A stretch of DNA of 64,000 bases, taken from Atractiella rhizophila. Lineage: Eukaryota. How positions within the stretch are numbered: the first letter of the stretch is position 1; each line of letters starts with the position of its first letter. Both the position numbers and the translations under genes were made by a program. Location: NCBI GenBank assembly GCA_021432655.1, contig MU271339.1, positions 1 through 64,000 on the forward strand, given 5' to 3'. The notes under the pieces are model-generated. The model had not been told where the DNA came from, made no database searches, and was given only the letters and a program-made list of their open reading frames with translations. Positions 1-52,500 of this stretch are shown one piece after another.

Positions 1-95
1 CCCTAACCCTAACCCTAACCCTAACCCTAACCCTAACCCTAACCCTAACCCTAACCCTAACCCTAACCCTAACCCTAACCCTAACCCTAACCCTA
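1..95. repeat. Telomeric repeat (CCCTAA)n; left chromosome end
   Basis: 15 perfect CCCTAA units (1-90) plus a partial CCCTA, at the very start of the sequence, with the C-rich strand on +. Confidence 0.99.
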
Positions 96-239
96 TCGTT
101 CCTTTCTTCCTCCATGCCATCACTTTCTTAACCCTCCTCCTGGTTAGTCCCCCCGTCTATCCCTCACTACAATGATCATCCAGACCTCTTCCGGTTCCGC
201 TCAATCTCCATCAACCCAACCTCCAATCCCTCGACCCCA

Positions 240-1233
240 TCACCACCATGCTTCTTCCCCACCTCTTCTCGCGATTATGGCGCCCAGTTGGGGAATCGAC
301 ATGCTGGAGGTCCATTTAACCCCTGCCTTCCTCCTCAGTTCAAGGGGGACAGTGAAACAACAATCGAAGGTCAAGCGCTCGTGGCACACGAGGGGAGGGA
401 TAGATAACTTTTCCGAAGCTTTTTCCCATTCACTCTCCTTATACCACTCCTTCAAACTGGGCAGCCTAGTTCCTTTCCCATCCTTCCCGCCCGCGGCGAT
501 GATGGGACGAAGTCTGAATGTCGTTTGCTCACTCTCGGCCGGACAAGCTTCGCCAAGAGCTAGGAGCTTGCGCCAATCTGGAGGGGGCCAGTGAGAATCG
601 AGACCCGCGTATGAACTTGGGAAATGAGGAGCAACACAGTAGCCTGGGAATCCATCAATAGAGCGAGCAGCGACTGCGAGACGCTTACCGGGACCAGGGT
701 GAGGATGAGTATATGCGGGAACCGTCAATGAAGGACCTGGCTTTTTGTTCGCGCGAGCGATTCGATGGGTGTTAGGGACAGTTACGGCTTTTGATTGCTT
801 GCGGGTGAGGGTGAGGTGATGCTCTTCCGAATGGATCTTTTCATGCCTCTTCAGATCCCACGGTAGTTTGAATGTTTTTTGACAAATCTGGCTCGCGTGG
901 AATACAATTAGTGTGCTTGCATCTTCAGTTCAAGAAAGAGGCGAACCTCGCATACGTGTGGCCTGAAGGGAGAGTGTGCTCGAAGATGAGCCTTAGGCTT
1001 CTTGAGACATGTAACTTTACAGTTCTCCCGTTCGCAATTGCCGGTCAAAACATGATCGTCACAAACATGATTGTGCAGCAGTTCCCTGTCCAAATTACCA
1101 AAATCTCAGGATAACCGAAATAGCCAAAAAAAAAAAAAAAAGAGATGACTTACATATTCTCGAACGCTAATTGACACCCTCCCCACCGACATTCCAAAGC
1201 CTTCTGCTTCTGAGCCTGAGTATTGCTCTCCAT
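240..1233 (-). CDS. Divergent PacC/Rim101-family C2H2 zinc-finger transcription factor, 3 exons (1233-1154, 1085-947, 887-240), about 288 aa
   Basis: Manual splicing (GTAAGT..ACAG intron 1153-1086; GTTCGC..CTAAT..CCAG intron 946-888) joins three fingers in frame: CRWGGCQLAFENMELLHNHVCDDH, CERENCKVTCLKKPKAHLRAHSPFRPHVCE, ICQKTFKLPWDLKRHEKIHSEEHH..KQSKAVTV. The third matches the basidiomycete PacC pattern FKRPQDLKKHEKIHTEEHH..HSKAITV. It continues in frame into ORF 240..728. Confidence 0.85.
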
Positions 1234-1409
1234 GTCTAAATCCCGGATGACGAGTAGAACCACAATTTTATAGAAAATTTCCATTATGTGAGCTAGCGCG
1301 CGGCAACCCTCATAAAAAAATCGAACCTTCGATCTGAACGCTGATGCTGTAGCGCCTACATGGAAGCTTGATGGAAGACTTCGTCAGCAGGTTATCGGCC
1401 ATTCTGTAT

Positions 1410-4400
1410 TAGGCTTGTCACACGGTTTGGAAACCTTCAAAACCGCCAACCCACCTGACCCGTACACCGTACGGGTTGTCTGTGGGTGCAGGGGAAAATC
1501 CGTGAGGTATGAGGGAAGGGTGACGGGTTAGGATCTCTTCTCACCAAATTCCGCAGGAACCTGCGGGTTCTCTGATTTGGTCGTCGCTTGAGTTTGGAGT
1601 TTCGGATTGCATGAGCATGTCTTAGCCGCTTGCAGGCTGACAAGCCCTAGCTTCAAGAGATGCATAAGTTGACGTCTGGTGTTGAGATAAGTGAGTTAGA
1701 AATGGTTCTTAGACAATGATAATTTCCAAGTTTTGCCCATATCAGAAGAATGTTCATCGTTTCTGGTCAAACACTTTGAGAGGCCTCACGCTTCTTTTGA
1801 GCTTGGACACCCTTGTCCGTATATTATAATAACCCACAACACTGTCCACTCTCTCTTCTTTTAAAGTTGCTCAGTAAAAATTCAGTTTGCAGGATGTCCA
1901 AGCGGCAACGAAAGGACTCAAACAGTAGTCAATCTTTAGAAGAAAGTCAAAGAAGACCCTATTCTCAAGCAATTGAGATAGATGACGATGAGAGCAATGC
2001 AGTTCAGCTGACTGCTCGAAAGTGCCGACCCTGATCTGCCCAAATCCGCTAACATCAAAGTTGACAAGACATTCAAGGCTTGGGAAGATAAAGACATCAT
2101 TGGTATGTACTTGTTTGAAGTACGATTGTGCAGACCATAAACTGATTAGATTTCTCTCAGACTTTGATGTACAACGATGGGGTCAGTCCAAAGTTCAGAA
2201 GAATGGAGATAAACATAGTGTATACCTTCATTACCATGAGCGACCTATTCTGCGACGAGGGGAGTACACTCGAGACACAAAAGCTGGTCGCAAACCGGGA
2301 GAATTCCGAATTTTCTACACCTTTGTCTGCAAAACCGATCCGAAACATACCTTTGAGCGCCCTCGAGATGATGGTGGAACGAACGGACTCAGAAAGAGTG
2401 CAGACAATTGTGACATGGTCTGTTTCTGCTTCTTACAACATCATCGATTGGACTTGATATGTATTCAAGGTGAGAGAGGCAGCTGAAACTGCTGTTCCTA
2501 GGAAGCAACGTCAAACTACTCTTGGGACGAACGAGGAACATCAACTTTGGGTCAACTCTCTGGATGAATCTGATCGCCAAATCCTACGACGAGTTCTCGC
2601 CGCACTGTGGTGCTCAACTTCTGCTCGGGCATTCAACATCGTTCAGGATAAGTACCTTTGTGAGCTGTTACGAGTGGGGAATGGCGGCAAGGAGCATATT
2701 GCAAACTTGGAACGACGGGATGTATCGAATGATCTGCAGGTACTGAATGAGGTAGTGCGGGAACGTGTCAAGGAGAGGATTAAGGTAATTAGTTACTTCT
2801 TAGATGGGAACGTACTGATTGAGCATGGGACAGAACATCAAAGGCCAAATGTCTATCACGTTAGATGGCTGGACATCTCCTCATACATTCAGCTATATTC
2901 TGGTCTATCTACACTACCATGAGAAAGGCCAGATGAGGAAGATTGCACTTGGATTCCTGAGGTATTGTGGTATTTCTCTATGATATGCTATTTAACCATG
3001 TTCTTTTTCTAGGATTTCAGGATCACACACCGGTGAAAATATTGCTGAAGCTGTTTATAACCTATTGGATATATACAGCGTTTGCGAGAAGGTTAGTCTG
3101 CTTCTGTACTTTCCATCATCTCGAGATATCCGGCATTGAAAGGGCGATCACAGATACTAGGTCCCTGTTGTGATAGTGCTAGCAATAACGATACATTCAC
3201 AGCAGCATTAGCCAACAAAGAGAAGTTCCCCAAAATGAAGCGTTGGGATCCTCAACTCCGAGCAAGATGCTTTTGCCACATTATCAACCTGGTCGCCAAG
3301 GTACATCTTCCTTCTCTGCTCCCTTACTTTGTCTAAATTGACTGGCTTTCCAGGGTTTCCTCAGTCGCTTTAAGAAACCAGTTGCAAAAAAGGGGACAAT
3401 AAACGGCGTTGGAAATGTTGTCAATGCGGATGAAGCAGCACTCGAAGAGCTGGAAAAAGAAATCAGGGAATCAGGATTTCGGGATGCTGCTGAAGTTGAA
3501 GGTGTGTCAATGGCTGGTTAATCACTCACTACTTTTACTTAGCAATGGCAATAGCAACAACGGAGGAAGCCCAAATAGAGGATCAAGAACTTTTCCAAGT
3601 GGCTGAAGCCGCCAGATGTTCAACAACTTGTACGCCATCAGAGGAGCAGGAAGCTCGTTTCATGCTAACCAAGGTAGTTATTTTAGCTTTTTCACTATAT
3701 AATCCTTACCTTACAATCGCAATGAGCAGTTATCAAATCTCGCAAAACGAACCAACATGAACGAAGCACTTCGGACCAACTGGAGGAAGAAGTGGCGAAT
3801 GTGAAGAAGGAAGACCCTGACGGCCCTCTCAAACATCTCGTCCCTCCTATACACCTTGTTACAGCCTGTCCAACACGCTGGAATGGAGAAGGTGACATGA
3901 TTGCACGGGCCTTGACACTCAAGGAACCACTCCGCAACCTGTTTGGAAAGCCTGGGCTCAACTTGGAGCGATGTGCCTTGACACGAACAGAGTGGATGAT
4001 CATGCATGAGGCAAGTCCTAGGCTTCAGGCATGTTCATCTCTTTTCTATTACGAGCTGCAGAAGGGAGATCCACCAGCTCTTTCAAGAAACCACGAAACA
4101 GATGTCTCAAACGAATGCGAGCAATCTATCCACAGTCATTCCTGTCTTCAACAATATCGGGCTAACTCTCTCCCGCCTATACGAAGCATACACCCACGAA
4201 GGCAATCATCACATACCAACGGTGCATGCTGCAATACAAGCTGGGGCAGCGATCGCTCATGGGATCTTGGATAAGTACTTTCTCAAGGTTGCCGACAAAG
4301 CAAAAAGTTACATCTGGGCGCTCTGTACGCTTCGTTTCTTTTATTCTTTAGTTTATACAGTAATCCTTGTTCACATCTCTTCTTAGTATTGCACCCAAAC

Positions 4401-5395
4401 CGACGTGCTGCCTATTTGCGTGTCCTCGATTGGGACGAAGAATGGATCAACGATGGCATTGAGAGCATGCGGGACTAATACAAAAAGTGGTATCAAGCCG
4501 AGCTTAAAGAGCAAGTAACGGTGTGCTCTTTTTCATCCCTACATTCGTCTGATTCATAGGTGTGCAAGGGTCACAACGTCCCTCCACCGCCGAAGAAGTT
4601 GAAGACTGTGTATGCACTTGACTCTGTGGTCCAGCATTTCGATGCAGAGGATGCGACAGACTATGTCATGGAGTTCGTAAAGGCTGCCCCCATTCCTATT
4701 AAGAGTTACCGTGATGGATCCACCAATGAGCTGGATGCCTTGAAGTTTCACTATCACGCATGGAAGCACGCAAAAAGCGGCAATGAAGACGCTAAAGCAA
4801 AGTTCCATGAAATGGCTATGGATCTTTTGGCAATCCCTGGTGAGTTGTATTATCCTCTTCCACCCTACATGAACCGTTTACCGAAGCATATTTCACAGCA
4901 ACATCAGTAGATGTAGAACGGGCATTCTCTAGCGGTCGCTTGACGGTCTCGTGGATGCGTCACAAGCTGTCGGACTCAAGCTTTCGTGCCTCAATGATGA
5001 TGAAGCTGTGGGAACAGGACGAGTTGATGCCTTCGGTAAAGGTGTTGTTGAGAGCATTGAAAAAGAATGATAGGAGCCAGAAGGATGCGGCTGCTGCTAG
5101 GAAGAAACACAAGGTGCAAGAGGCAGTAGGGGCAGTCATCGAGACCATTGAGTAAAGACACATGCATTGTTCTTATTGCATACATTTTACAACACTAATC
5201 ATCTCATTATACCCTTCACCTACCCGCGACCTGTCGGCCCTTTCGTAACTGTCACCCACCCATAAACACCTACCCACACCGCGGGTTGAAGGTGAAAACC
5301 GTGCGGGTGAAGGGGCGGGCGACGGGATGGTACTCAAGGTAGAAAACCAGGTGGTTTTTTCCACGGGATGGTGGGTAACCCGTATGACAAGCCTA
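1410..5395 (+). mobile_element. hAT DNA transposon (copy 1)
   Basis: TIRs TAGGCTTGTCACACGG (from 1410) and CCGTATGACAAGCCTA (to 5395), 15/16 match. CCCGT/ACGGG subterminal motifs and an internal hAT transposase. No clean 8-bp TSD seen. Confidence 0.9.
1894..5155 (+). pseudogene. Intron-rich hAT transposase with a premature stop
   Basis: Motifs LDGWT (~2860), CDSASNND, RARCFCHIINLVAK (CxxH), CPTRWNG, LHPNRR and ATSVDVERAFSSG (dimerisation domain). In-frame TAA at 4476-4478 where copy 2 is open. Confidence 0.85.
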
Positions 5396-5761
5396 ATCAT
5401 GTGGTCCGGCCCATTTATTCAAGAGGGGGGTATGCTTTGTCCCCAACATGGAAGATTCTGATGAACACATATGCAAGATGATGTTTACACGCCACATCGA
5501 TGGTCGAATGGCACCCACTTCATTATGAGGTTAGAGAGTAGCAGAATATGCAAAGATGGATAAGAACAGATGCCGCTTAAAGCCACCACAGAAAGTGGAG
5601 AAAAAGGATCCTATACGAGGCAAGGAAGGAGAGTGTTTGGCCACGACCTGTTCTTGCATACTCTCATCAGACCAGAAAAACTATATTTGTACGCAGTAAT
5701 AGGCGTTCATCCAGGGGATGTATCAAGAACGATGGTTTTCATTCAACCTTATCATGAGAAT

Positions 5762-8700
5762 TAGGCTTGGTACACGGGGAACCCGTGGCCCCGTGGGTTT
5801 TTCCGGGAGGTTTTGGCGCTCTGATGCCATCCCGTACCCGCCCTCGAACCCTCAAGGGTTTTCCCGTTGTTGCAGGGGCATTCCCGCAGGATTGCTGGGA
5901 GGGGACGGGAGCCAAAGGGTTCACGGGACACTGACGGGATGGGAGGGGCGATATCAATATTATTATCCATGTACTCTACTAACCCCTCTGCACAGTTCAA
6001 TAATCATTAATCATTCACCTATCAATCAATCAATCAATCATCATGCTTCCCTCCCCAAGCTCCGCCTCAGCCACCGCCTTCTTCCTTGCCGCCTCTGCTC
6101 CCTTCCTCTTCTTCCTGTCACTCTGTTTCACAGCTCCAAATAACTCCTTCATAGGAGGCATGAATCCATCCTGCTCCCAGATCTTGAGCATCATGGCTGA
6201 ACGAAAGACGGGGTCCGACAATTGATGACGCAAGTAAGAAACCGTCAGACGACCCCCTGAAAAGGCACGCTCAACATCCACCGAAGTTGCTAGCACCTTC
6301 AATCAATGAAAAAAACAGAGATGAATGAAGCTGCATACCTGGGACTGCCATAATATCCATGGCCATCTCGTGGAACTTCACACGGAAATGCTCCTTTGCG
6401 CGCTTCGCCTCTCGCCATTGCTGATAGTGGTACTTGAGGCCATCCAATTCTGTTGTCCCAGAATCATCCTGCAGGGTCTTGATAGGCAACGGGACACCTT
6501 TGATAAACTCTACAAGGTAGTCGGCAGTGGAGGTATCGTCTGCATCGTCAATCATTGCGTCGAGTTCGTACAATGTCCAAGCCTTCTTTCGTAGGCGTGG
6601 CACAGAGGTGGATGCCTGTGAGCAACAAATTAGGACTTAATTGTGGGAAGGAAAGTAGTTCCGGGTTGGACGCGCAGAATTACCCATTTCTGCTTTGTAA
6701 TGCTGTCGCTGAAACTCCTGTAAGCTATCCATGGCTTCCATGATCCAAGCCTCTTCCCAATCCAATTTTTTCAAGTATGCAGCCCGGCGGTTGGGATGAA
6801 GCACTTGAGTATCTGTCAGTTTCAATGCTGAAATGTTTGAGTAGTGAAAACCTGCAAAGAGCCTATAGATAGATATTTCGAATCTTCAACTACTTTCAGA
6901 AAATATTTGTCCAAAACTGCCTGTGCAGTTGCAGCGCCGGCTTGGACAGCAGCGTGCTTGTCAGGGAAGTGGATTTCACCATCAAGCTCGTAAGTTTCAT
7001 AGAGGCGAGAGAGATGGACACCGATATTATTGAAGAGGGGGATGACACTGGCTAAATTGGAGAAGTTGGCCCTCGACATCCAGTCTGTTGCCTGTTGGAA
7101 CAGCTAAAGCAAAGTCTTAGCTTTTGGATAAAAAAAATAAACGGGAAAAACATACTTGCAGGGTCGGATTTGCTTGCTCCATAATTTCCCACTCTGTTCT
7201 TGTCAATCGGCATCACTCAAGTTTTAAGCTCGGTTTACCACAAAGATTTCGCAATGCGTCCTTCAAGTCTATTGCTCGATCAATCATCGCACCTTCGCCA
7301 TTCCAACGTGTGGGACAGGCTTTGACAAGGTGCACAGGAGGAGATAGAAACTTAAGAGGTCCTTCAGGATCCTCTTTTTGGAGAGCGGCAACCTCGTCGT
7401 CAAGTTTGCTTCTAAGCCCATCGTTCAAGGCTGTCCTTTTGGCCAGATTCGCAAGCTATTTTGTTGATTAAAGGACCGTGAAGGGTGAAGACAATGCAAT
7501 GCATGCAGCGTACCTTCGTGAGCATGAAACATGCCACTAATTCTTCCTTCGGAGAACAAGTTGCTTTCGGAGCAGCCTCTTCCCGAATTAGATCAATTGC
7601 AGCCGCTTGTGCTTGCACTTCTTCACTTTGGTCTATAGCAGAAGCGTTAGATTGTTAGACAAATTGGCTAAACCATACCTTCTAGTTCTGCTTCTTCAGT
7701 GAACCCCGACTCTCTCAGTTCTGCTTCCAATTGTGATAATGCCACTTCATCCGCAGTAATGGAAGTCCCAATGCCTTCTATGACTCGTTTCTTCGTAACT
7801 GGCTTCTTGAAACGACTCAAAATCCCTGGACATTGCATCATCTAATCAGTCTCCCATCACATTTTACTGCCAGAACCGTACCTTTGCAACCAAGTTGAGT
7901 ATGTGGTCAAAGCATCGCACTCGCAAATCTCCTCTCCAGAGAAGCATCTTCGGATACTTGACCCTGTTTTCCATTGCCATTGTGAATGTATCGTTGTTAG
8001 ACGCACTGCCGCACGTTGGAGCCATGACCTGCGCAGAATGTCAACTCTCGAAGAAAGACTCCATGAGCAGACTTGAACACGCACCGTCTCGCACACTTCA
8101 TATGAATCCAATAAACCATAGACCAAAGCAGCAATGTTATCTCCCGTATGTGAATCAAGAACCCTGTTCCTACATTAAATGGGTTCTCATAATGAAGGAC
8201 TTTGTACCGAATGAAACCAAGAGCAACTTTCTTTGTATCTCCCCGCTCGCGGAAGTGAAGGTAGACAAGGACATAACTGAAGCCCTGAGGAGCTGTCCAG
8301 CCGTCCAGCGTAATGAAAAAGTTCCCACGAGCAGCCTTTGACAGTTATTAGTATTGTATACAGGATTCAAACTCGGCACGTACTGAAATTCTGGCCTTCA
8401 CCTTAGCGCGCACGTACTCCTGCAAGAATTTCGCATCCTCTACTACTCTGTGACGATCAATGTTTGGAACACTCTCTGATCCACCGTTCCCAAGCTTGAG
8501 GATCTCTCGGAAATAATGATCGTGTGTGACATTGAACGGACGAGCTGAAGTGGTGCACCAGAGAGCGGCAAGGACACGTCGGTACGTGTCGCGGTCCGTC
8601 TGGTCCATCGCGTTGACCCATAGCTGATTCTCGCTGACCACAAGTTTTGTTTGCTGGCTCTTTGAAGATCCTTCGTCGCCCTGTAGACAGTCTTTTTAGA

Positions 8701-9300
8701 TCCTTATCTAAAGCTCACAAAAGACCAACCTCGACGCATTTGTCGGCGCTAATTTGCAAGCCTTTGGTGCTTCCGTCATCGCGAGCACGTTCATACGTGT
8801 GGTTCGGGTTGGTCTTGCAGACAAACGTGTAGAAAATGCGAAGTTCTCCTGACTTTCTACCAGATCGCGTGTCCTTCAGATAGGTACCGCGTCGAAGAAT
8901 TGGGCGTTCGTGATAATGAAGATATACGCTCGGTTTGTCGCTATTCTTTTGAACTTTGGACCTTCCCCAGCGTTGAATATCGAAGTCTATTGTAATATCA
9001 GAAAAAGATTTGGATGGAGTCTCGGAAGAAGACCAACCAATGATCTCATCATCCTTCCAACCGTCAAAGCTGCTGTCCATCTTGAAGTCCACCCCTCGTG
9101 GTAGTTCCCGAGCGTGCTTTCGAGGGGACCTGCGAATGGAATCCCCAACATCATCATCTGATGAATCAAGCTCGATGGTAGCAATATTTTGAGGGTCAGG
9201 GGTTCGGCAGGGGCTCTGATGAATGGTGTCGGAATTCATCGAATCTTTCCGAGTGCGCTTGGACATGATGGAATACCAGACAAGAAATGAGTGCAAGTGA
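5762..9300 (-). mobile_element. hAT DNA transposon (copy 2, paralogue of copy 1, convergent orientation); 5' boundary not found
   Basis: TIR-like TAGGCTTGGTACACGGG at 5762 with ACGGG/CCCGT subterminal motifs. Transposase exons are collinear with copy 1. Confidence 0.85.
6030..9266 (-). CDS. hAT transposase (multi-exon; intactness not verified)
   Basis: MSKRTRKDS start; SVYLHYHERPILRRG..FYTFVCKTNPNH; LAALWCTTSARPFN; CPTRWNG; LHPNRRAAYL; ATSVDVERAFSGGRLTV. Confidence 0.85.
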
Positions 9301-11428
9301 TTGCCAGGAAATCAGTCCTGTTTTATAACTTTTCGCCTCTGGGTACGGCCGATAGAGGCAATCCTCCACCAATTGCAAGGTCAACAGAGCACACGGATGT
9401 GGTATGTCAAACCCAATGGACTCGTCCGAAGCAGGCACTGACATTTTTTGAAGAGAAGCAAGATGTGCCGTTTGTTTTCCTTCAGTCCCTGCTGCTCGTG
9501 GCGGTGAAAGCAATGTGTATGGACCAACACTCCTTTCAGCCGGGCAATATGACGGTTTCTGAAATCCGTACACCGAGTGATCGACGCTAGACTCAGTCAT
9601 TTACTCACGTACGTTGGACTTAGCCCAGAACTTTGTTTCTGGGCTTTTCTCAATTACAGCTTGAGGCTCCTTGAACAAAAGTGCAGGTCCAATCATAATC
9701 AAGGCACTCCAGCAATTGAACCACCAGAACAATGCCAGTACATGGGCTACTTTGTTCCATTAGCGCTGATGCATCCCTACTGTCATCACGCTATGGTGGC
9801 TATAAGTACAGTTGACGTGAAGGAGATGGATGACATACATCCAAAATTGATGGGATATGGAATAGACGCCATTTGGTTTCCTAATTCGTGGGCACAAGTG
9901 GACTGAGCAAGCAAGAAGAGGTGATCAAGGACAATAACTACCTTTCACCTCTGTTTTTCCGAGCACAAGCAAAAAGCTCTGTTCGTGCACTTCACTTTCC
10001 TTTCTGTGCGACCACAGTGCTCACCTTGCAAGCATCCGTAGGGATCCCTATGCCAATCAAATCTTTCTCTTTGACATCCACCAAGGCACTGTTGATCTTA
10101 TGTTCAGCTGCAATTTTTAAAGAAAAGACAGCATACCGCATGGTATTAAACTTAGAGGCTGCAAATCTGCAGATCGTGTTCATCTCGTCGAGCAAATATT
10201 ACAGGAGAAGAAACCCAAACTTGTCATAGTGCTCTCCCATCCCACAAGTTGTCAAGGCGTGCATCAGATCCGTATTAGTTTGAGCTTGAGACATCTTTAC
10301 AGGATGATGGGGAAATCTTTCATCATTTGCTTCTTAACGGTTTATAAAGTTTCGATGAAGAGCTTGAGAGATACCAGATCGAATTATTCGAGGAGCTTGT
10401 GAAAGAAGCAGCCTCAAAAGCTTCGACCCTCATCATGGACCCTCACTTTGGTGAAGACGCCAGTTCTATATCCCGCATGTCTCAGGTTCCCGCTCGTAAC
10501 TGGATACTATTTGATCCACCGAATGCGAATGGCCGTTTGATCCACCGTATGCGAATGGACATTTAATCTCATTGTGCCCTGAAGCAATCGTGTCGCCCGC
10601 TCGCTCAATACAAAGAAAAGTTGTTCAGGAACAAGCGATAATGAGCGTTGGCATGGATTCTCGTTCACCATTAGCGGGGCAAGCATCGCCAGCTATTGGC
10701 CACTCAGGGTGTGTCGGAGGTCTGGGCAGTCCAATTGTTCGCAGAGGCCCGCTCCTGTGTCATTTTGTTCTAATCTTTGAACCGTTCTTGGAACTAAGGC
10801 TCAAAAGGAAGACCAAAATTAAAGTTCGGAGTACCCCCTCCGATGTGATGGACCCAGACCCAGGACAGGACAGAGAAGTAAGGCCGGGTATCCTGGTCCA
10901 GTCCTCGTATCGCAATTTGAAATGTGGGCAAAGTGATGGGCGCGAGGGTTTGTGAAAGGCGGCCAGAGGCCTCCAAAGGGTTTTGCTCGTTTGAAGTTTT
11001 TAACCCCGACGTCGCCGACGGGTTCTGCGTTCTGTAGTTTCAGCTTAGTTACTTAGTGACCTGTTTCCGTGCAATTTCATACATTTCTCGACTTCACTGA
11101 CGTTCGATACGAAACCTGTTTACGCCTAGCCAGCCCCTTCTTCCCTTTGCTTCAGAGCGTCAGAGCTTCAGCATCACTACATCGATATTTTCTATTTCTT
11201 TGTCCCATCAATCACTCCTTCCGCTCACCATTGCGTACACAACAAGCTTTGACGGTACCCGACAGCACGGAAGTTGCTGAGGTTCATCACTCCCAAGGGA
11301 TCGAGCCACTCTTCATTTTTCCCAAACACTTGTAAGTAGTCATCTAGTCCGAAGGGAAGGGGGAGTGAAGGGTTTTATTGGAGATTTGTTGTCGTCAGTT
11401 TCGTCCTCCCATCACAAGATTCACAACA

Positions 11429-13721
11429 ATGAGCTCTCGAGCTCCCACTCCTCCACAATCCAGTCTCGCGCCCATTTCAAATCAACTGAAAGTAACGCCG
11501 CGACGTACCACCAGTCGCTCCAGCTGTCACAGCCAAGCTTCGCAGAGCGAAGGGGCGGATGAAGCGAAACTTTCTGCCGCTCAAGAAATGAAGGGACGCT
11601 TTGTCTACATGGATGTCGAGGCGTTCTTGGACTTGTTGCCGCCTGGTCCTGTCATGCCCGAACCGACAGCCCCTCCAACCCTCTCCGACAATGAGAATTT
11701 CGAGCATTATAACCCTTCTCTTCCGTTACCATGACTCCATATTTATGTGCATTCTTAGATCGAGTATATGTCTTCATTCGTGGGGGATTGGAAACTAGCG
11801 AATACGAGCCAGTCCAACGATGGCCGGTGCTTTGCGCCAGTGTTTGGGTCTGATCGTGGTAAACCGGATGTCACTCTTTACCATCCGTCATGTGAAATCG
11901 AGCAGAGCGATGAGGGTACCAAGGGCTACAAGGCCGACATGACACGGGCAGAATTGTTTGGGGAATTCAAAGTCAAAAAGGAAAGCGATCCTTTAGAAGA
12001 CACAGTCGACCTGGGGACTCGCGCCAGAGGCATTGTAGAGACGGAGAGCCAGACGGGACAGAAGACACGCGGCCAGATCATCATCTACAGTACGATGGTG
12101 CTATCGAGTCAACAACGAACTCGTGTTTTCTCGTTTTACGTGCGAGGTCATCACGCGAGATTAATCTGCCACTCACGTGCTGGCTTTCAAGTTACGCATT
12201 CTTTTGATTACTCAAAGGATGCCTATCTTCAAGAGTTCTTCTGGAGATATACGAACGCCAACCGAGAGGCTCGTGGACACGACGTGACCTTCGTCCTAAC
12301 CCCAAACGGTCAAGCGTCCGACCGCGCTCGAGAAGTGTTGAAGCTCAGCACGAATGCACCTCTCTTTACGGTCTCAGTCGGAATGACGGGTGCAGAAGCT
12401 AGACAGTTTTACGTTTCGACACCGTTCACGTACCGACATAACGTCCCAGTCGGTCGCGGAACGAGATGCTTTCGAGCATTTGATCCAGAAGGAGCTACTG
12501 ACGAAGAACAGCGAGTTTTCTTGAAAGATACGTGGCGCAACGTCGGATACGCTAAGGCAGAAGGAGAAATCTACGAGCTGTTGAAAGAGAAAGGAGTACC
12601 GCACGTTCTGAAGCCCGTCGCTCATGGTGATGTCCCTGGAATGCTGCAGCTCGCTTCTGTAGGGGAGAAATCTCTCCGTCACTATCGATTGGTTTTGGAC
12701 AAGGTCGTCCGTCCGCTGTGGGAGTTCCCATCCACGAAATGCTTGATTCAGGCTCTAGCTGATGCTCTCGAAGGCAAGTAAATTTTCTTGACAACACCAA
12801 GTTCTCATCTGGCCATTTTAGCTCATCAGAAAGCCTTCGATTCTTCCGGCGGTCAAGCTTCGATCCTTCACAGAGATATATCTGAAGGCAACATTCTCTT
12901 TGACGACAACAGACGCGGTTTCCTTTGTGATTGGGAGCTGGCCAGGGTAGGGGAGGGTACTTCGGAGGCGAACGAGCGAACTGTAGGTGTTCCTGTCTGA
13001 TGTGAATGCCATAGTTGACGTTCAGTAGGGAACAGAGGAATTCATGTCCCTACGTCTCCTAGCGAGCATGGTGGATGATTCGCCTATGGAACATGAAGTG
13101 CAAGACGATATGGAGTCCATGGTCTATGTTCTTTTGTGGTCCGCCGCTTCGTACGCAGCCAGCAACATGAACCCCTACGAACGCGGACGATTCCTCTCTA
13201 ACTTTGATAGAGTACCGTTCCACGAACTATCTGCATCGGTCGAGGCAAGAAGGATGGTGATCGGATCGCAATCAACTGTTGAAAGCCTTAAACTCTCGGC
13301 TGCGCTGGCATTCAAGGAAGTCCTAGAGGAAGTGATGACGGCCTTGAGACTGTCAGTTCTTGGATTGAGTAGGGAGCTGAAGGAGGCGAAGAAGACGATC
13401 ATCCGGTTGACACTAGAGAAGCAGGGACCATTTACAGAGGAAGAAGTCGAGGCCGTGGCTGTTCGCGAGGAAAAGAGGCTACGCTCTCAGATGGGGACGC
13501 ACGACTGCTTACGAAAGATATTGAGGCGCTCGCTTCTTTTGGGTGACTGGGGAGATGAGAAGGATAAGGCCTACAATCACGAGGTTAGGCGTCCTGGTCA
13601 GAAGATACGAAAGAGGAAGGGAACGGCGTTGCCATCCAGTCAAGCTTCCAAACAATTGAGAGGACCCGGAAGTGGGCACATTGTGAAGGTAGCTAAAGGG
13701 CAGATGGCACTTTCAGAGTAA
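11429..13721 (+). CDS. Fungal-type protein kinase (FunK1 / Pkinase_fungal family)
   Basis: Motifs GRGTR, FLKDTWR, RHYRLVL, ILHRDISEGNIL, GFLCDWELA, RTGTEEFMSLRLL and HEVQDDMESMVYVLLW. Introns 12774-12821 (GC-AG) and 12983-13028; the first intron donor (~11710-11725) is unclear. Confidence 0.92.
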
Positions 13722-18399: not shown

Positions 18400-21300
18400 C
18401 AGTCTTTGGTGTTGGATTTTCAAACAGAGGCGCCGCATATCAAATAGATTCTGTATCTCAGATCTTGCTATCTTTAAGATAATATTATATTACTCTGTAT
18501 CCTCCTCCAAGCGGCTGTCTACATTGTAGGTCCAAGGATTCTTCTTGAGAACATAAAGTTTGGACGGAAGAGGTGGCCGGTTGGAAGATGCCAATCAAGT
18601 CTTTGACTGCGCTGCCCAAGGCTTCGTCCCACCTTCCCAAAAGAGTCTCTCCTGGGAGATTTTGTGCAGCAGAAATACAACGGCTGACAACAATGTGTGT
18701 TGCACTGGAAACTGCTAGATTGGCGGGCAATCTTATGTATATTATTGCCTCGGCATATCCTTCCCTCCCGCCATATTCATACTTTCCATAAATCAGTCAA
18801 GCTATGGGAGACAATAGATCGCATGACTTACAACAAAGCGACGCGCTCGCCTTATAGCATTACGTTGCCGACTTTCATTTTCCAATGAGCGAACCACTGT
18901 TCCGTCTGCAAGATGCATCTTCCCCGACTTCTCTGATTGAGAATATATCCTAGCAACGTCTTCACTTTCATATTCAGTTCCCATAACAGACGTAAGGTAA
19001 GACTGAAGTGCGGTTAAGATGCCGCTTTCAAGAGCAGAATCAAACGTCCTAGACCATTTGGCGGAAAAAAGTATTTGTTCTTTTTGTCGGTTTAGGAGAG
19101 TTGTCAACATGAGGAATGTAGAGCTTGAGAATATTCAGTTGTTCGCGCCGGATCAGGTTATTCGCTAGTTCGGCATATGGCAGTCTTCGTGAACCCCCTC
19201 AAATCCAGTGCAAAAGCCGCTCATGAAGGAACCTGCACTTTGAAGTTGTGATAAAGAGGCGGCATGGATGTTTGTGATGATTTTGACTGCAGAGACAAAT
19301 TTCGTCCAATGTTGTATGAGCTTGATGTGGAAGCCAACTTCCAGCAATATGGGAATGGAATACCAATGCACCCATCCAAGCCACTCGTATATTGAATATC
19401 GCGTATTGCGGAACTTGTCTAGATTGCGAATGCGGTTTGAGAAGCGTGCTGGCAAATCAATTACCGCGTTGTCCATAAGCTCACCAACAAGGATTTTCTG
19501 ATCTGTAGAAAGAAGATGTCGGTCTCCTTCAACAGGGCTCCGCTCCATAAGTCCCATAGATGGGGAGTTACATTCTCATAGAGAAGGTGGGCAAGATCCG
19601 GTGGAAAGAAGAAAGTTGGGAAGAAAGTCGCAAGCCTGGACCAGATTACACACTTTACAATTCCAAACTCAGTTCGTAGCTTTTCTCTTCGTGTCTGATT
19701 TGGTGCATTTTCGATTTGTTCAAGATATTCGAAATAGGACTCGTTTGTTCGAAGAGGGAGAGCATCTGGATTATAAGTGTCCGGTCGATTTGCGTTAAGG
19801 TTCGTAAAGGGAGACAGCTGGTCATAACCCTGAAGCGAGGTGTCGTCAGAGGAAAGTAGTTGGTCCTGACATTTGGTGCAGGCCGACATCCTCTCAATAG
19901 ACAAAACCTGCACCCACGAACCCCCTGGTGTCCTGTCATTCCATTCATCTTCTGGGAACCAGGCATATCGGCACAACATGCGCAAAGGTATCCTTTCCAT
20001 AGGAAGGGACGTTCTTCTACGCTATCCCACATCCACACTCCTAGAGATGCTCGCGCAAAATCTTCCACAAATGGATAGAAAAAACTCTCGATATTGACAG
20101 GAGGGTTTGGCCCAGGAATGGCAGCAATTGGCAGCTCGATTGTGTCCTGCATCCTGCCCTCTTCTGCAGGAACATTAAAGATTTGAAGCATAATCATCCA
20201 AACCTCTCCTTTCTTCTTCATGCTAAGCTGAGCACCATCAGTGGACAGGGAGAATAACCCGGTACGAGGATCATCGGAGAGGTTCAGACATTGTTATAAC
20301 GTTTGAAGAAGTTCACCATCCGCCAAATCCTTATATACTCGATCCGCTTCGTTTGCCAAAGCGAGGCCTTGCATCAGAGTTCTGTAGTTGCTCCGCATCA
20401 ATGCCGCCATTCTTCGATCGGCAAAGTAGGCACGGACTCGATTGAGAAAGTCCAGAGTAAGGTATTCGTGTTGCGGTTTAGGATGTTCTCTGCCTTCCCT
20501 AGGGCGATAACGAGGTGCGTTACACTTGACTACCTTGCCATCGATATTCCGCACACAGGGACAGAACTTCAAATGATCATATGGCCCAATAAATGCCATG
20601 CAAGAGTTCACACACATGTCGTGCCGGCGAGGTGACACTCTGGTGAGTTGCTCGATATGTTTGGTCGTTTCGTAAAGTGACAGAATTTTGTTGCCTTGTG
20701 CACGCAGATTATTTGCATATCGATTGTACTGCTCAACTGTTCCATTGGTTTTGGCCCAAGCATACCAGTGGCGAAGGCTTGGAAGTAGCTCTTCGTCGTC
20801 AGGAAAAACTGATGGCAGGAAAGTGGGTAGATCTGGTGGAGGATTGTCGGGAGGTAGAAGGTGAGGAAGTTCTTGCTTGAGTTCCTCATACCGACGTCGG
20901 AAACTCTGTGCAATCCACTCGTCCGGATCGATGCCACCTTGATCATGTCCCTCACTACCACTCTCAGGATTGGCCACCCCCTCACCGCCATCTTCAATGT
21001 CTGATCCCTCTAATCCTGCCGAATTCTCCACGTCTTCTTCTTCGGATTCTCCTGCCATGTACGATCCCACCTGCACGTCTGCAAAATAATATTGCCCATC
21101 TAGATGCAGGTCCAGTTCATCGTCCGACTCTTGATCTTCATTATCCTCTATTATGGCTTGATGGAGAGGAGAAGGAGAAAGGGTTGAGAGTGTGGAGAGG
21201 TCGTGATGTACATCAGTTGGAGTATTTTTCGAGCTGCAAGGCAATTAGCGGATTGTCAGGTGAATGAATATAAGTGCGTACCTTCCTAGGCTAGATGCTA

Positions 21301-33372: not shown

Positions 33373-34736
33373 TCAACTGCATTCCGGATGCAAATGGAGA
33401 GACCGCTGCAGTGCTGGTAAGCATGTCTGCAGCGCCTTTGACAAGCCAGATTGCGGGATCTGCTTTAGCCTCACTTTCTTTCATTTCAGCTAACATGCCT
33501 CCGCAGGCAACTAAGCATGCTCCACCAACCCATTGAAGTCCTACTGCCCAACATCTTTGAACCTACGATCAAAATTGCCTGTGTCAACGATCCTGTACGA
33601 CAAATCATTACAACGTACAATGCAGACATATTCGAATACTACATCAACCGCTTCACACTTCACGACTTGTATCTCAACTCCGAAATTCACATCCCTAACT
33701 GGATCCGCAATGGCTTCCCAGCTCACATTGTCGACACTGACTTTGTTAAATTCATCCCTCCAAACACCTCTACCCTTCACACCTCCGAAGCGAAGAAAGC
33801 CTTCGTATGCAGTTGGTGCCAGGAGGAACGTCTGCTGAACCGTCTCCTCGGCCCATTCACAGAGTCAACCCTGGACATAGTCTTCAATGGAGTCTGGAGG
33901 ACTAGCCCAATCTCTGTAGTCGACAAGGCAGGAGCACAGAGCACCTGGCGAGTTCCGCCTTATTGTTGATTTCTCCCGAAAACCCCACTCTCAAAACTCT
34001 CCCCCTCTCAAATCAATCAATGAGTACATGCAAAATACCAGCGAAACCAACACACCGGATGCTGAACAAACTAGGGGCAACATACTCATTGATTGATTTG
34101 AGAGGGGGAGAGTTTTGAGAGTGGGGTTTTCGGGAGAAATCAACAATAAGGCGGAACTCGCCAGGTGCTCTGTGCTCCTGCCTTGTCGACTACAGAGATT
34201 GGGCTAGTCCTCCAGACTCCATTGAAGACTATGTCCAGGGTTGACTCTGTGAATGGGCCGAGGAGACGGTTCAGCAGACGTTCCTCCTGGCACCAACTGC
34301 ATACGAAGGCTTTCTTCGCTTCGGAGGTGTGAAGGGTAGAGGTGTTTGGAGGGATGAATTTAACAAAGTCAGTGTCGACAATGTGAGCTGGGAAGCCATT
34401 GCGGATCCAGTTAGGGATGTGAATTTCGGAGTTGAGATACAAGTCGTGAAGTGTGAAGCGGTTGATGTAGTATTCGAATATGTCTGCATTGTACGTTGTA
34501 ATGATTTGTCGTACAGGATCGTTGACACAGGCAATTTTGATCGTAGGTTCAAAGATGTTGGGGAGTAGGACTTCAATGGGTTGGTGAAGCATGCTTAGTT
34601 GCCTGCGGAGGCATGTTAGCTGAAATGAAAGAAAGTGAGGCTAAAGCAGACCCTGCAATCTGGCTTGTCAAAGGCGCTGCAGACATGCTTGCCAGCACTG
34701 CAGCGGTCTCCCCATTTGCATCCGGAATGCAGTTGA
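33373..34736. repeat. Long inverted repeat: 654-bp arms (33373-34026 / 34083-34736), 56-bp spacer, about 99% identical
   Basis: Mirror ORFs 33517..33969(+) and 34140..34592(-) encode identical proteins. All paired coordinates sum to 68109; about 6 mismatches seen, all in the outer ~180 bp. Confidence 0.98.
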
Positions 34737-49564: not shown

Positions 49565-52500
49565 TCAAAGAAACCTCTGTAGCAGTGCATAATTTTCAAG
49601 TAAGCGTAAGAAGGCGTCTTGATCTGAGAACTTGCTCAACCAAGCCTCCCGGTGGCTGTCTAAAATGTTCGAGCGATTTTGATCGCGAGGAGTTTCTGTT
49701 TTGAAGACTGGTGTTACATGCGCCGGCCGTATAATTCGTTCGATCGGGATCACTTCCACTTCACGGACTGGAACTCGATTGACAGAGCCCTCAGCAATCT
49801 TGAGCTTCCACATGCGTGTGGTGCGGTCAATGTCGTGTCCAACAAGGTTGAAATACTGGACAAAAGCTAGTTGATGCTCCTTTCCCTCAAACTCCAGGCT
49901 GAAAAAGAGAAGGACTTGTGCGGGATGGAACGGACGGTTTGCTGCTGCCCTTGTTTCACGAATCACAACACAGTCAAAGCGTTCAAATGCCTTATCGTTT
50001 GCTTCAGGGACATCCCGAGAGTACCACGAGTCCTTCGCTCGAGTAAAATACTTCAAAAGCGGCCTGTTCTTTGTAGGGGCAGCTAGGTTCCTCCAGACAG
50101 CAGTGACTGTGCCATAACGGTGATAGTGCCAAGGAAATTGGGAAGCTGGTCGTCATGTTCGTAGCCAACATACCCCCCAGTTGCCAGTGACTTGAGAAAG
50201 CATCCGATGTGATAACGAAGGTAGAAAAGGCACTCTTTCTCGATTGCTTGGAGCACGGGCATCGGATATCCTTTCTCTGCCCCAGCACAATGTATCAGCC
50301 ATTGCAGCTTGTTTACAAAGTTATTTTACCAGGAGTTTGTTGCCATGAAACTCCAATATTGCCCCCATGATCGACATGGCGTGCTCCACGAGGTCGAGCA
50401 GCCTCATTTGGAAGCAAACCCACATCCTCCAGATACGCCGTCTTTAGCTGAAAGGCATCTTGCAAGAAGTTTCAGTTTAAAATCTGTGAATCTGCATTAT
50501 TCTTGTTGGTCCCTCTGAATGGGTCCTTAAGGTCAACCGAGTGAAGAGCTTCGGCGCACTCTGTACTCAGAAAAGTCACTGATTCAACATTGACAATGTC
50601 ATCATCGTAATGATGAAATGCCTGAATTTTTGGAATATTATCAAAGCCTTTCTCTTTTCCATCTTTGCCGACAGGAACACAAGCAAACACAGCCAGATCA
50701 GCAAAAAAAGTGTGTTTTTGCTTGCTGCAGGCCGTCACGTTCTTCGTTACCAAACACGGGAAGATTTGCAAAGTAGACAAATTCCAGTAGCGCCACTGTC
50801 CATCGCAATGCTGGAGTTGGGACAAGACCGTAAATGGCCGGGGCAAAGATGGCTGCGAGCTGTTGAGCGTCGCCTGCCGACCAGCGAGAGAAGTTGAGAC
50901 CCATATAGAAACCACGGATGCCTGGAAAAGCTGGCATAAATTTTAGGCATCTCTCCAGTTCCAAAATCCCTGGTCCACCATGTTCTTGACGCTCGATCTC
51001 AATGAGTGCAAGGATCCACTGGACAATGTAGTGAAGAAAGGTACCTTTGAGCAGCTGATGGAGGATATCTGATACAAGAATGCTATGCATGTCGGTTAAG
51101 CGCAAATTGTCTGTGTATGGTAAAAGTGGACGTAGCCCTGCTTGCTTGAGCCGTGCCTCTGACCATCCAGCAACCAAAGCATCCCTACATTGGCTTTCAT
51201 CTCGCAGTGGCCACTGGTCATCCTTCCCTTTGTCTGAAGGGTCGACAAGGCAACAGTCACACCATCCGTCAAAGAGGAGAGCAAGGAAAACCTTCTCCAT
51301 GTAGTCCGCGAAATGAGCTACTATTGGAGGGAAAAAGTGGCGATAATATCCATCGGGACATCTTGCAAAGAGCCAAGTCTCTTCAAGTTCTTGCAATGGA
51401 TCTGATAATGCGATTCGGAAAGCTTGAGTGATGAGGGCGCGAGAGAAAATTCGGTATTCTTCAGTGCTTTTTTCGGCATCAGTAGCTCCTGCTACCTTCT
51501 AGAGATAGTCTAAGAGGAACGCAAGTCACATACTACGGATGAGTGGGACACCAGCTACAAGCATGAAATATCGGAGATGGTGTAAATAGGCCACATCTTC
51601 ATCAATGTTGCCAGGCAAGACATAAATGGGGTAGAACTCCGCACCACCTTTTTGAGCAGCAAGCAGGGTGTTATCTGAAGCAACTTTAAGAGGCATTATC
51701 GTTTCATCTGAACCAAGTAATCTCTGCCGACCACATTAGATCGATTAAGAAGAATGCAAGAGGCTTGATGACAAACCTGATATCTTCGCCACACCTTTGC
51801 CGAAGCCATCGAACTATAGACCTCTTTTCCTTCCACATCAATATCAATAAAGGCTTGGTACTTAATAGGCCCATTAAGTCCTCTTGCACCAAGTGTCCTC
51901 ATCAAGACATTCTTCAGGTTACGATGCCGAACAACATACATCTCTTGCATGTATCCTGGCAATTCTCCATCTCGGAATCTATCCCGTATCTCGTCCACAT
52001 TGACAGTGACAACCGTCTTGTGCCATGTAAAGTCTTCTGCACCCGGAACTTGGGAAATAAGATCAAATAGCTTTTGCCTGTCTTGGATGGGGCGATAATT
52101 AAAGTGCTCCTCCAAAAAATCCAGGTATTCTTTTGTTCGTTCAACACTGAGTACTACTCCATTCGAGTTTAAAATAAGCATTCCTGCATCTCGCTGACGC
52201 TTATCTTCAAAGGGCCACCATCCATTATTCTTCTGATTAGCCTGTTCCAATGGATCAGGCTCTGGACCGTCATCGTACAATGCTGGAGTGCCGTCTTTTC
52301 GAAATCTCCTCCCTTTGAGCACAACATAATCGACCAACACACTGGCTCCGAACAAAAGAGCTCCTTACCGCCAGGCACAAGTTTCCTCTGTACGGCACGT
52401 GCACACCACGATCCTCTTCATTCTCAAGCCCTGCAAAGGCTGAAATCTTTCCTCAACTTCATCCCATCCAACTGCTGGATCAATTTCACGATTCCTCATG

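What the first reader, a model, noticed from the sequence alone, without database searches (positions are those of the whole stretch)
240..1233. Hidden telomere-adjacent PacC/Rim101 paralogue with altered zinc fingers and no C-terminal regulatory region
Seen: splicing two canonical introns gives an open ~288-aa three-finger protein that the ORF track misses. Known: PacC/Rim101 has a nearly invariant finger-3 helix (KRPQDLKKH), finger-2 helix (KRDHITSH), a Trp in fingers 1 and 2, and a long C-terminus removed by alkaline-pH proteolysis. Here finger 3 reads KLPWDLKRH (-1 R>L, +2 Q>W, +6 K>R). Finger 2 has lost its Trp and two residues (CERENC..KKPKAH), and the finger 1-2 linker is shortened, yet all zinc-ligating Cys/His and the post-finger EEHH..SKAVTV are kept. 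The protein is roughly the size of processed PacC. Inference: a pH-independent paralogue with altered DNA specificity, or a competitor of the true PacC, evolving in a subtelomere.
Basis: partly seen in the sequence, partly recalled or inferred. Interest (0 to 1): 0.8.

Follow-up and report, generated by a model that had tools for sequence, protein, structure and literature searches.

The report
Shrunken PacC copy with altered fingers
At the very tip of a fungal chromosome sits a shortened duplicate of the pH-response regulator gene pacC whose reading frame has been kept open while its DNA-reading residues changed, so it is either a regulator with a new target or a formerly useful gene now dying, and no data yet show that it is expressed.

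Summary
The spliced gene is real (1233-240, minus strand), and a canonical 682-aa pacC lies elsewhere in the genome. The window gene is an old in-genome duplicate (dS about 0.9) and not a simple truncation. Three sister loci are broken. For function: 0 of 6 indels shift the frame in the first 210 codons against 13 of 16 behind them; neutral survival of the frame is under 1%; finger 3 changed at 3 of 4 base-contacting positions and 0 of 13 other invariant ones. Against: dN/dS on its own branch is 1.27 (1 not rejected); finger 2 is two residues short; a young transposon sits 176 nt upstream and the telomere 144 nt downstream; two low-depth public runs show no splice joint. It should not read PacC's GCCARG site, so a competitor role is unlikely. 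A live, re-specified, pH-independent regulator (0.42) and a recently dead gene (0.38) are nearly tied. Closest precedent: truncated Fusarium PacC copies, which keep intact fingers.

The parts
1..95 (+). Telomere repeat array (CCCTAA)n at the contig start
   Evidence: 15.8 perfect copies
96..239 (-). 144 nt between stop codon and telomere; still decayed pacC coding DNA down to about position 109, so the chromosome end lies inside the old 3' coding region and the native 3' UTR is gone
   Evidence: local alignment to the canonical CDS
240..431 (-). Frameshifted tail (63 codons) and TGA; pacC DNA read out of frame; canonical YPSL motif lost
   Evidence: 13 of 16 indels from here to 109 are not multiples of 3; the first -1 shift is absent from sister C1083
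432..605 (-). Retained C-terminal segment (canonical residues about 467-527), in frame, with the LPSL motif at 464-453
   Evidence: 52% identity over 61 aa to canonical PacC, E 1e-16; best of 120 other orthologues E 0.55; LP columns at least 90% conserved in 47 aligned orthologues
606..643 (-). Start of exon 4, up to the junction of the in-frame deletion of about 300 canonical codons plus canonical intron 4
644..688 (-).
   Evidence: same position as canonical intron 3; one contig of run X1 reads through it unspliced
689..887 (-). Exon 3: most of finger 3 (-1 Leu at 866-864, +2 Trp at 860-858, +6 Arg at 848-846) and the post-finger segment
   Evidence: Pfam zf-C2H2 25.1 bits, cut-off 25.2, on the 63-aa NCBI model
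888..946 (-). Intron 2, 59 nt, GT..AG
   Evidence: same length and position as canonical intron 2
947..1085 (-). Exon 2: finger 1 helix, 5-residue linker, shortened finger 2 (about 1036-974), first Cys of finger 3
1086..1153 (-). Intron 1, 68 nt, GT..AG, with a poly-T run
1154..1233 (-). Exon 1: ATG and first half of finger 1, Trp kept
   Evidence: 19 of 80 nt differ from canonical exon 1
1234..1409 (-). 176 nt of native 5' region; no GCCARG site; TATAAA at -39
   Evidence: homologous to the 5' regions of sister copies
1410..5398 (+). Young DNA transposon with terminal inverted repeats, hAT-like by recalled motifs, cutting the upstream region
   Evidence: 98.3% identical over 3993 columns to a copy on G000:C16; 21-nt inverted ends; transposase-like frames; no Pfam hit on the 3 of its frames scanned

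Best explanation
A lineage-specific, internally deleted duplicate of pacC (a mini-PacC) that selection has kept as a protein and that is still, or was until very recently, a pH-independent nuclear regulator with a different DNA target. Shown: duplication within this lineage; in-frame deletions that join the finger region to a conserved LPSL segment and remove both YPx[LI] motifs; a protected reading frame; finger 3 scaffold intact with its contact residues swapped; the finger 1-2 tryptophan core dismantled. Inferred: without the PalA docking motifs and the inhibitory parts it needs no alkaline proteolysis; finger 3 still gives nuclear import and a weak grip on a site other than GCCARG, perhaps helped by the basic stretch behind it; the LPSL motif recruits a co-regulator (role recalled by likeness to Mig1/CreA-type motifs, untested). 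Expression is not shown.
For: Canonical pacC and its allele lie elsewhere. Outside the fingers the copy matches only this genome's PacC. 0 of 6 indels against the canonical gene shift the frame in codons 1-210, 13 of 16 do behind them, p=0.001. dN/dS to canonical 0.29, bootstrap 0.19-0.41, 209 codons. Simulated neutral survival of start, two introns and 210 codons over its own branch (0.095 changes per site) is 0.0005-0.007, with the 12 ligands 0.00005-0.0007, while three sister loci of like age are broken. Finger 3: 3 of 4 contact positions changed, 0 of 13 other invariant ones, p=0.006. The frame is lost 7 codons after the LPSL motif. Precedent for expressed, nuclear, shortened PacC paralogues beside transposons: PMC6994591, section 9.
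Against: dN/dS on the copy's own branch is 1.27 and does not differ from 1 (p=0.67; 202 codon columns); it differs from the canonical-plus-stem value 0.22 (p=0.001). 33 of 75 PacC-invariant positions are changed or deleted, the same share as 16 of 37 variable ones. Finger 2 has a Cys-His spacing of 10, found in 0 of 120 orthologues, and models without a helix at pLDDT below 50 whereas a canonical control forms it at about 75. One intact reading finger is a poor DNA binder (general knowledge). Two of the three finger 3 changes are shared with the dead sisters. Transposon 176 nt upstream, telomere 144 nt downstream. Contigs of two runs show no splice joint; one reads through intron 3 and one runs 9 nt into intron 2. 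No relative outside this genome.
Confidence: 0.42

Rival explanations
1. Once functional, now dead or dying: the last open-frame member of a family whose other three loci have decayed, silenced by the upstream transposon, the loss of its 3' end and its place at the telomere, and too recently dead to show a stop.
For: Branch dN/dS about 1; 15 nonsynonymous to 1 synonymous change in exons 2-3 by parsimony, 8 sites unresolved; changes fall on invariant and variable sites alike; Trp of finger 2 lost on this branch only; a frameshift did arise on this branch, at codon 211; frame survival is 0.04-0.12 if decay lasted only 0.04 changes per site; 3 of 3 coding differences in runs X1/X2 change a residue, 2 of them in the first 210 codons, in contigs of depth 2-3 that may hold errors; unspliced contigs.
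Against: A short decay cannot explain about 20 amino-acid changes on the branch, and a long one leaves the frame intact under 1% of the time. Finger 3 scaffold and all 12 ligands are untouched. Non-finger codons lean to dN/dS 0.27 (p=0.10 against 1, unstable fit).
Confidence: 0.38
2. Alive but no DNA binder: a decoy that enters the nucleus by finger 3 and titrates a co-regulator or partner of true PacC through the LPSL segment or the post-finger stretch.
For: Explains a protected frame with free drift of fingers 1-2 (18 of 37 undeleted invariant sites changed against 3 of 17 in finger 3, p=0.04). A nuclear localisation signal lies in PacC finger 3 (PMC2572694, passage). The LPSL segment is kept in frame.
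Against: Does not explain why finger 3 changed only at contact positions. No partner is known for the motif; nothing was tested.
Confidence: 0.14
3. Competitor or constitutive mimic of PacC at GCCARG sites, like processed PacC or the Fusarium copies.
For: Size and loss of pH-control motifs; +6 Lys to Arg is conservative and +3 Asp is kept.
Against: Finger 3 -1 and +2 changed and the finger 2 helix KRDHITSH, present in 120 of 120 orthologues, is destroyed. Q155K and K159M lose function in A. nidulans (PMC4832277, table); Trp mutants lose part of it (PMC2572694, passage).
Confidence: 0.04
4. Dead on arrival: a subtelomeric fragment never under selection, open by luck.
For: Transposon-rich setting; an earlier unverified note reports an in-frame chimeric pseudogene at another chromosome end of this genome.
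Against: Five in-frame deletions shared with sister copies, dN/dS 0.29 to canonical, and the sharp change in indel phase at codon 210.
Confidence: 0.02

Closest known systems
PacC/Rim101 pH-response transcription factors (Aspergillus PacC, basidiomycete orthologues, canonical copy at G000:C350)
   Same: Direct descent; three C2H2 ligand sets; introns 1-3 at the same places; finger 1 Trp; finger 3 scaffold; post-finger segment; LPSL segment.
   Different: Linker 5 not 12 residues; finger 2 Trp lost and helix two residues short; finger 3 changed at -1, +2, +6; central 300 residues with the basic cluster deleted; no YPx[LI]; no promoter GCCARG.
Truncated pacC_a, pacC_b, pacC_c on lineage-specific chromosomes of Fusarium oxysporum NRRL 32931 (PMC6994591, section 9 read; PMC9934661, passages)
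   Same: Extra, shortened pacC copies, 60-74% DNA identity to the core gene, flanked by transposons, beside a full-length orthologue; proposed pH-independent regulators.
   Different: Those keep an intact DNA-binding domain, lack the C-terminus, are shown to be expressed, and PacC_b is nuclear. Here the fingers are remodelled, the loss is an internal deletion plus frameshift, the host is a basidiomycete, and expression is not shown.
Tandem CWCH2 finger pair of Zic/Gli/Zap1/PacC (PMC2837044, passages)
   Same: Ancestry; the first Trp is kept.
   Different: Second Trp replaced by Arg, and the linker that paper calls highly conserved in PacC is cut to 5 residues, so the shared core should be lost.
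Subtelomeric duplicated gene fragments and pseudogenes (general knowledge)
   Same: Position, transposon neighbours, broken sister copies, branch dN/dS near 1.
   Different: Start, splice sites, 210 codons and 12 ligands are intact at an age where neutral survival is under 1%.

Membership tests
PacC/Rim101 | Homology and descent from pacC | tested here: met
   57% identity over 169 columns to canonical PacC, E 6e-60; groups with it at 96/70, on a very long branch, bootstrap not settled; shared introns
PacC/Rim101 | Three C2H2 ligand sets | tested here: met
   12 of 12 Cys/His
PacC/Rim101 | Canonical finger 2 (12-residue spacing, KRDHITSH helix) | tested here: not met
   spacing 10; 120 of 120 orthologues have 12 and the motif
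PacC/Rim101 | Finger 3 helix KRPQDLKKH | tested here: not met
   KLPWDLKRH; canonical motif in 114 of 120 orthologues, several of the rest being partial records
PacC/Rim101 | YPx[LI] motifs bound by PalA/Rim20 | tested here: not met
   none in the copy; two in canonical; present in 87 of 93 full-length orthologues; role from PMC4832277, introduction passage
PacC/Rim101 | GCCARG sites in its own promoter | tested here: not met
   0 in 1 kb upstream against 5 for canonical; autoregulation recalled
PacC/Rim101 | Binds GCCARG and is activated by alkaline proteolysis | not testable with these tools
   needs EMSA and western blots
Tandem CWCH2 motif | Trp in both fingers and a long linker | tested here: not met
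   second Trp is Arg; linker 5 against 12 in 120 of 120 orthologues
Fusarium-type truncated PacC paralogues | Intact DNA-binding domain | tested here: not met
   33 of 75 invariant positions changed or deleted
Fusarium-type truncated PacC paralogues | Expressed and nuclear | tested here: inconclusive
   two runs of uncertain type, depth 2-3, no splice joint
Pseudogene | Disabling lesion in start, splice sites or frame | tested here: not met
   none in codons 1-210; frameshift only in the tail
Pseudogene | dN/dS indistinguishable from 1 on its own branch | tested here: met
   1.27, p=0.67; values from about 0.5 to above 6 not rejected

The most novel reading that the evidence does not exclude
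A live, naturally re-specified PacC: one of the most invariant DNA-binding domains in fungi has been rebuilt after duplication, with finger 3 swapped at exactly its base-contacting positions under diversifying selection and wired by an in-frame deletion straight to an effector motif, giving a pH-independent regulator of a new set of genes in a root-associated basidiomycete.
Probability: 0.25. Interest if true: 0.7.

Novelty: new variant of a known kind. Interest (0 to 1): 0.42.

Why it matters
PacC fingers are nearly invariant (75 of 112 positions at least 95% conserved in 120 orthologues), and the extra copies described so far keep them intact. If alive, this copy is a natural experiment in how a pH-gated master regulator can be freed from its signal and given another target, and the piece that the deletion spared points to an unstudied LPSL motif of basidiomycete PacC. 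If dead, it is a well-resolved record of the birth and death of a small transcription-factor family at a chromosome end, of modest interest.

Tried and rejected
Only pacC of the lineage: rejected, canonical gene at G000:C350 with a 97.7% identical allele at C1450. Other ways to splice intron 2: 8 frame-keeping donor-acceptor pairs found, only 946/888 keeps finger 2 whole and the first Cys of finger 3. GC-biased gene conversion as the cause of the high dN/dS: no support (weak-to-strong 8, strong-to-weak 6 on this branch against 19 and 18 in the sisters, p=0.76). Positive selection on the fingers: dN/dS 3.3, not significant (p=0.12; p=0.16). Copies at other telomeres: not found; the sisters lie on C1083, C1253 and C203/C1986, and only C1253 has a 2-unit repeat nearby. 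Relatives elsewhere: none at E 0.001 among 362 and 4 candidates; 6 hits in the representative library, 2 from this gene family and 4 generic fingers; 20 metagenome loci, all short generic finger matches; Atlas and PDB searches gave generic C2H2 proteins. Expression: no RNA holder listed; the lack of cover at 1496-3095 in both runs is not used as evidence. The NCBI partial model is an automated prediction and may come from this same assembly, so it is no evidence of splicing. The protein tree has inflated branch lengths and serves only as a rough check. Earlier-finding look-ups by place, words and sequence gave nothing on this gene. No complex prediction or fold search was run.

Full report
Observation. 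The window starts with 95 nt of perfect telomere repeat. On the minus strand, removing 1153-1086 and 946-888 gives an open frame of 288 codons from 1233 to 240. Identical peptides are held in NCBI as partial hypothetical proteins labelled Atractiella rhizophila; one of them, 63 aa, joins exons 2 and 3 at the same junction. It is an automated model, may come from this same assembly, and does not show splicing.

The canonical gene. Searching the genome with exons 2 and 3 found a canonical pacC at G000:C350, a 97.7% identical allele at C1450, and two further derived copies at C1083 and C1253. The canonical gene has four introns and 682 codons, with the usual finger 2 and finger 3 helices. A DNA search added a fourth derived locus, seen on C1986 and C203, that holds only the 5' region, exon 1 and intron 1. 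The window copy is 69-77% identical to the canonical gene and about 81% to C1083 and C1253. Outside the fingers it matches only this genome's PacC (E 1e-16 and 5e-14; best of 120 other orthologues 0.55), so it arose by duplication within this lineage.

Anatomy, corrected. The copy shares canonical introns 1, 2 and 3; the third (688-644, 45 nt) is in frame, so the protein has 273 aa if it is spliced and 288 if not. It is not a C-terminal truncation. It keeps canonical residues 1 to about 166, jumps in frame to about 467, follows the canonical frame to about 527 through an LPSL motif, and then shifts frame for 63 codons. The deletion removes the central basic cluster and one YPx[LI] motif, and the shift removes the other; such motifs occur in 87 of 93 full-length orthologues and bind PalA in Aspergillus (PMC4832277, introduction passage). 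Homology to pacC coding DNA runs on to about position 109, so the telomere lies inside the old 3' coding region. Upstream, only 176 nt of native sequence remain before a 4-kb element with inverted ends, 98.3% identical to a copy on C16. The canonical promoter has five GCCARG sites between -213 and -112; the copy has none within 1 kb.

The fingers. In 120 mostly basidiomycete orthologues (the 120 listed of 1659 hits) the finger 1-2 linker has 12 residues and the finger 2 Cys-His spacing is 12 in every case; the copy has 5 and 10. The Trp of finger 2, half of the core that packs fingers 1 and 2 together (PMC2837044 and PMC2572694, passages), is Arg in the window copy only. AlphaFold2 models finger 3 of the 63-aa fragment at pLDDT about 85 and finger 2 below 50 with no helix; a canonical control forms that helix at about 75. 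The fragment lacks half of finger 1 and the alignments were shallow (21 and 20 rows), so this is a hint only. Finger 3 differs: of its 17 invariant positions only -1, +2 and +6 changed, that is 3 of 4 base-contacting positions and 0 of 13 others (p=0.006; position numbering from general C2H2 knowledge). The +2 and +6 changes are shared with the sisters, the -1 change is the window copy's own. Q155K and K159M are loss-of-function alleles in A. nidulans (PMC4832277, table); that they are +2 and +6 of this helix is recalled. Binding to GCCARG is therefore unlikely.

Evidence that selection kept the protein. Against the canonical gene dN/dS is 0.29 (0.19-0.41; dS 0.89; 209 codons). I count six indels in codons 1-210 (-3, -21, -6, +6, -21 and the large deletion), all in frame; from codon 211 to position 109 a local alignment shows 16, of which 13 shift the frame (p=0.001; purine-rich sequence may inflate the 16). 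Five of the six are shared, as far as the sisters reach, so the ancestor of the derived family was already a selected mini-PacC. C1083 has since lost its start, the GT of intron 2, two ligands and the frame; C1253 has lost exon 1, two ligands and the frame; the C1986/C203 locus has lost the acceptor of intron 1. A simulation of neutral change over the window copy's branch (0.095 per site, frameshift rate taken from C1083) leaves start, two introns and 210 codons intact in 0.05-0.7% of cases, and with the ligands in 0.005-0.07%; at 0.04 per site the first figure is 4-12%. Under a molecular clock the stem would have dN/dS of roughly 0.3-0.5; this is an inference, as no outgroup DNA was at hand.

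Evidence that constraint has gone. Pairwise dN/dS among the derived copies is 1.18, 1.06 and 1.28 over 96 codons. A branch model on 202 codon columns (gap-flanking codons and a duplicated stretch of C1253 masked) gives 1.27 for the window copy: 1 is not rejected (p=0.67), the canonical-plus-stem value 0.22 is (p=0.001). Fingers give 3.3 (p=0.12 against 1) and non-finger codons 0.27 (p=0.10, unstable fit). Parsimony gives 15 nonsynonymous to 1 synonymous change in exons 2-3 (8 sites unresolved) and 6 to 3 in the retained C-terminal piece (7 unresolved). Changes hit 33 of 75 invariant and 16 of 37 variable positions. Exons 2-3 differ from C1083 at 51 of 285 sites and non-coding parts at 28 of 153, the same rate. 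There is no sign of GC-biased conversion.

Expression. Two public runs of one study, guessed to be RNA, hold parts of the locus. Of 7 contig pieces laid, 5 lie wholly on the copy at depth 2-3 with few differences, and 2 are short matches whose loose ends read as canonical pacC. No joint was seen; one piece reads through intron 3 and one runs 9 nt into intron 2. These may be DNA or unspliced RNA and settle nothing. The three coding differences they show all change a residue, but may be errors.

How it most likely works. The two lines of evidence fit best a protein that is still needed as a frame with a folded finger 3 and the LPSL piece, while fingers 1-2 drift. Its descent, deletions, lost motifs and residue pattern are shown. 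Nuclear import through finger 3 (PMC2572694, passage), independence from alkaline processing, a new DNA site and a co-regulator bound by LPSL are inferred. I give a live, re-specified regulator 0.42, a recently dead gene 0.38, a decoy without DNA binding 0.14, a competitor at GCCARG 0.04 and a never-functional fragment 0.02. The first two cannot be told apart without transcripts or population data.

Comparison with what is known. Shortened extra pacC copies beside transposons are known from Fusarium oxysporum, where they keep an intact DNA-binding domain and are expressed (PMC6994591, section 9 read whole; PMC9934661, passages). This copy descends from pacC but fails the finger 2, finger 3, Trp-pair and YPx[LI] tests, so it should be filed as a PacC-derived paralogue and not as a working PacC. 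Eight paper searches showed no listing of a PacC paralogue with a changed recognition helix or of this locus; the library holds open-access papers only, I read listings and passages and no supplements, and the original PacC finger mutagenesis paper was seen only as a reference title. PMC8232033 (passages) added nothing on paralogues of PacC. No relative of the derived form turned up outside this genome.

Verdict. Observation confirmed with corrections; interpretation partly supported; a new variant of a known kind; interest 0.42, rising to about 0.7 if it proves to be an expressed regulator with a new binding site.

Noticed in passing
window 1410-5398: Young DNA transposon with 21-nt inverted ends, 98.3% identical to a copy on G000:C16, hAT-like by recalled motifs, with no clear target-site duplication; older related pieces at about 7149-7449 and 8773-8988 lie in the opposite orientation.
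   Followed up: partly
window 5499-5723: Sequence like the upstream region of sister copies C1083 and C1253, but inverted relative to the gene and lying between two transposon ends; it suggests a transposon-linked inversion of the far promoter.
   Followed up: partly
window 96-109: The telomere repeat begins about 14 nt after the last alignable pacC coding base, as expected if a broken chromosome was healed inside the old gene.
   Followed up: partly
L006 about 700-1010 (G000:C350, upstream of canonical pacC): Five GCCARG sites between -213 and -112 of the canonical pacC, suggesting autoregulation in this basidiomycete.
   Followed up: no
L013 4917-7203 (canonical PacC residues 517-520): An LPxL/I motif in the C-terminal third is conserved across basidiomycete PacC proteins (LP columns at least 90% in 47 aligned orthologues); I saw no function described for it.
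   Followed up: partly
window about 575 and the matching codon in L014: One codon is GGA in canonical pacC, TGG in the window copy and TGA in C1083; parsimony allows either a new stop in C1083 or an ancestral stop reopened in the window copy.
   Followed up: no
L015 266-277 and about 1620-2080 (G000:C1253): A two-unit telomere-like tract downstream of the broken copy and, upstream, what looks like a spliced RNA-binding (RRM-like) gene piece, judged by eye.
   Followed up: no
window 11369-13721: Fungal protein kinase gene (Pfam Pkinase_fungal, 73 bits on 11759-12781), the first recognisable non-transposon gene inward of the finding.
   Followed up: no
window 33469-33969 and 34140-34640: The same 166-codon frame stands on opposite strands, an inverted duplication of about 500 nt with a short spacer.
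   Followed up: no
window 19165-21244, 49565-52364, 60519-63271: Decayed frames that resemble, by recalled motifs only, further fungal DNA transposons and a Helitron-like helicase; most of the window is transposon debris.
   Followed up: no
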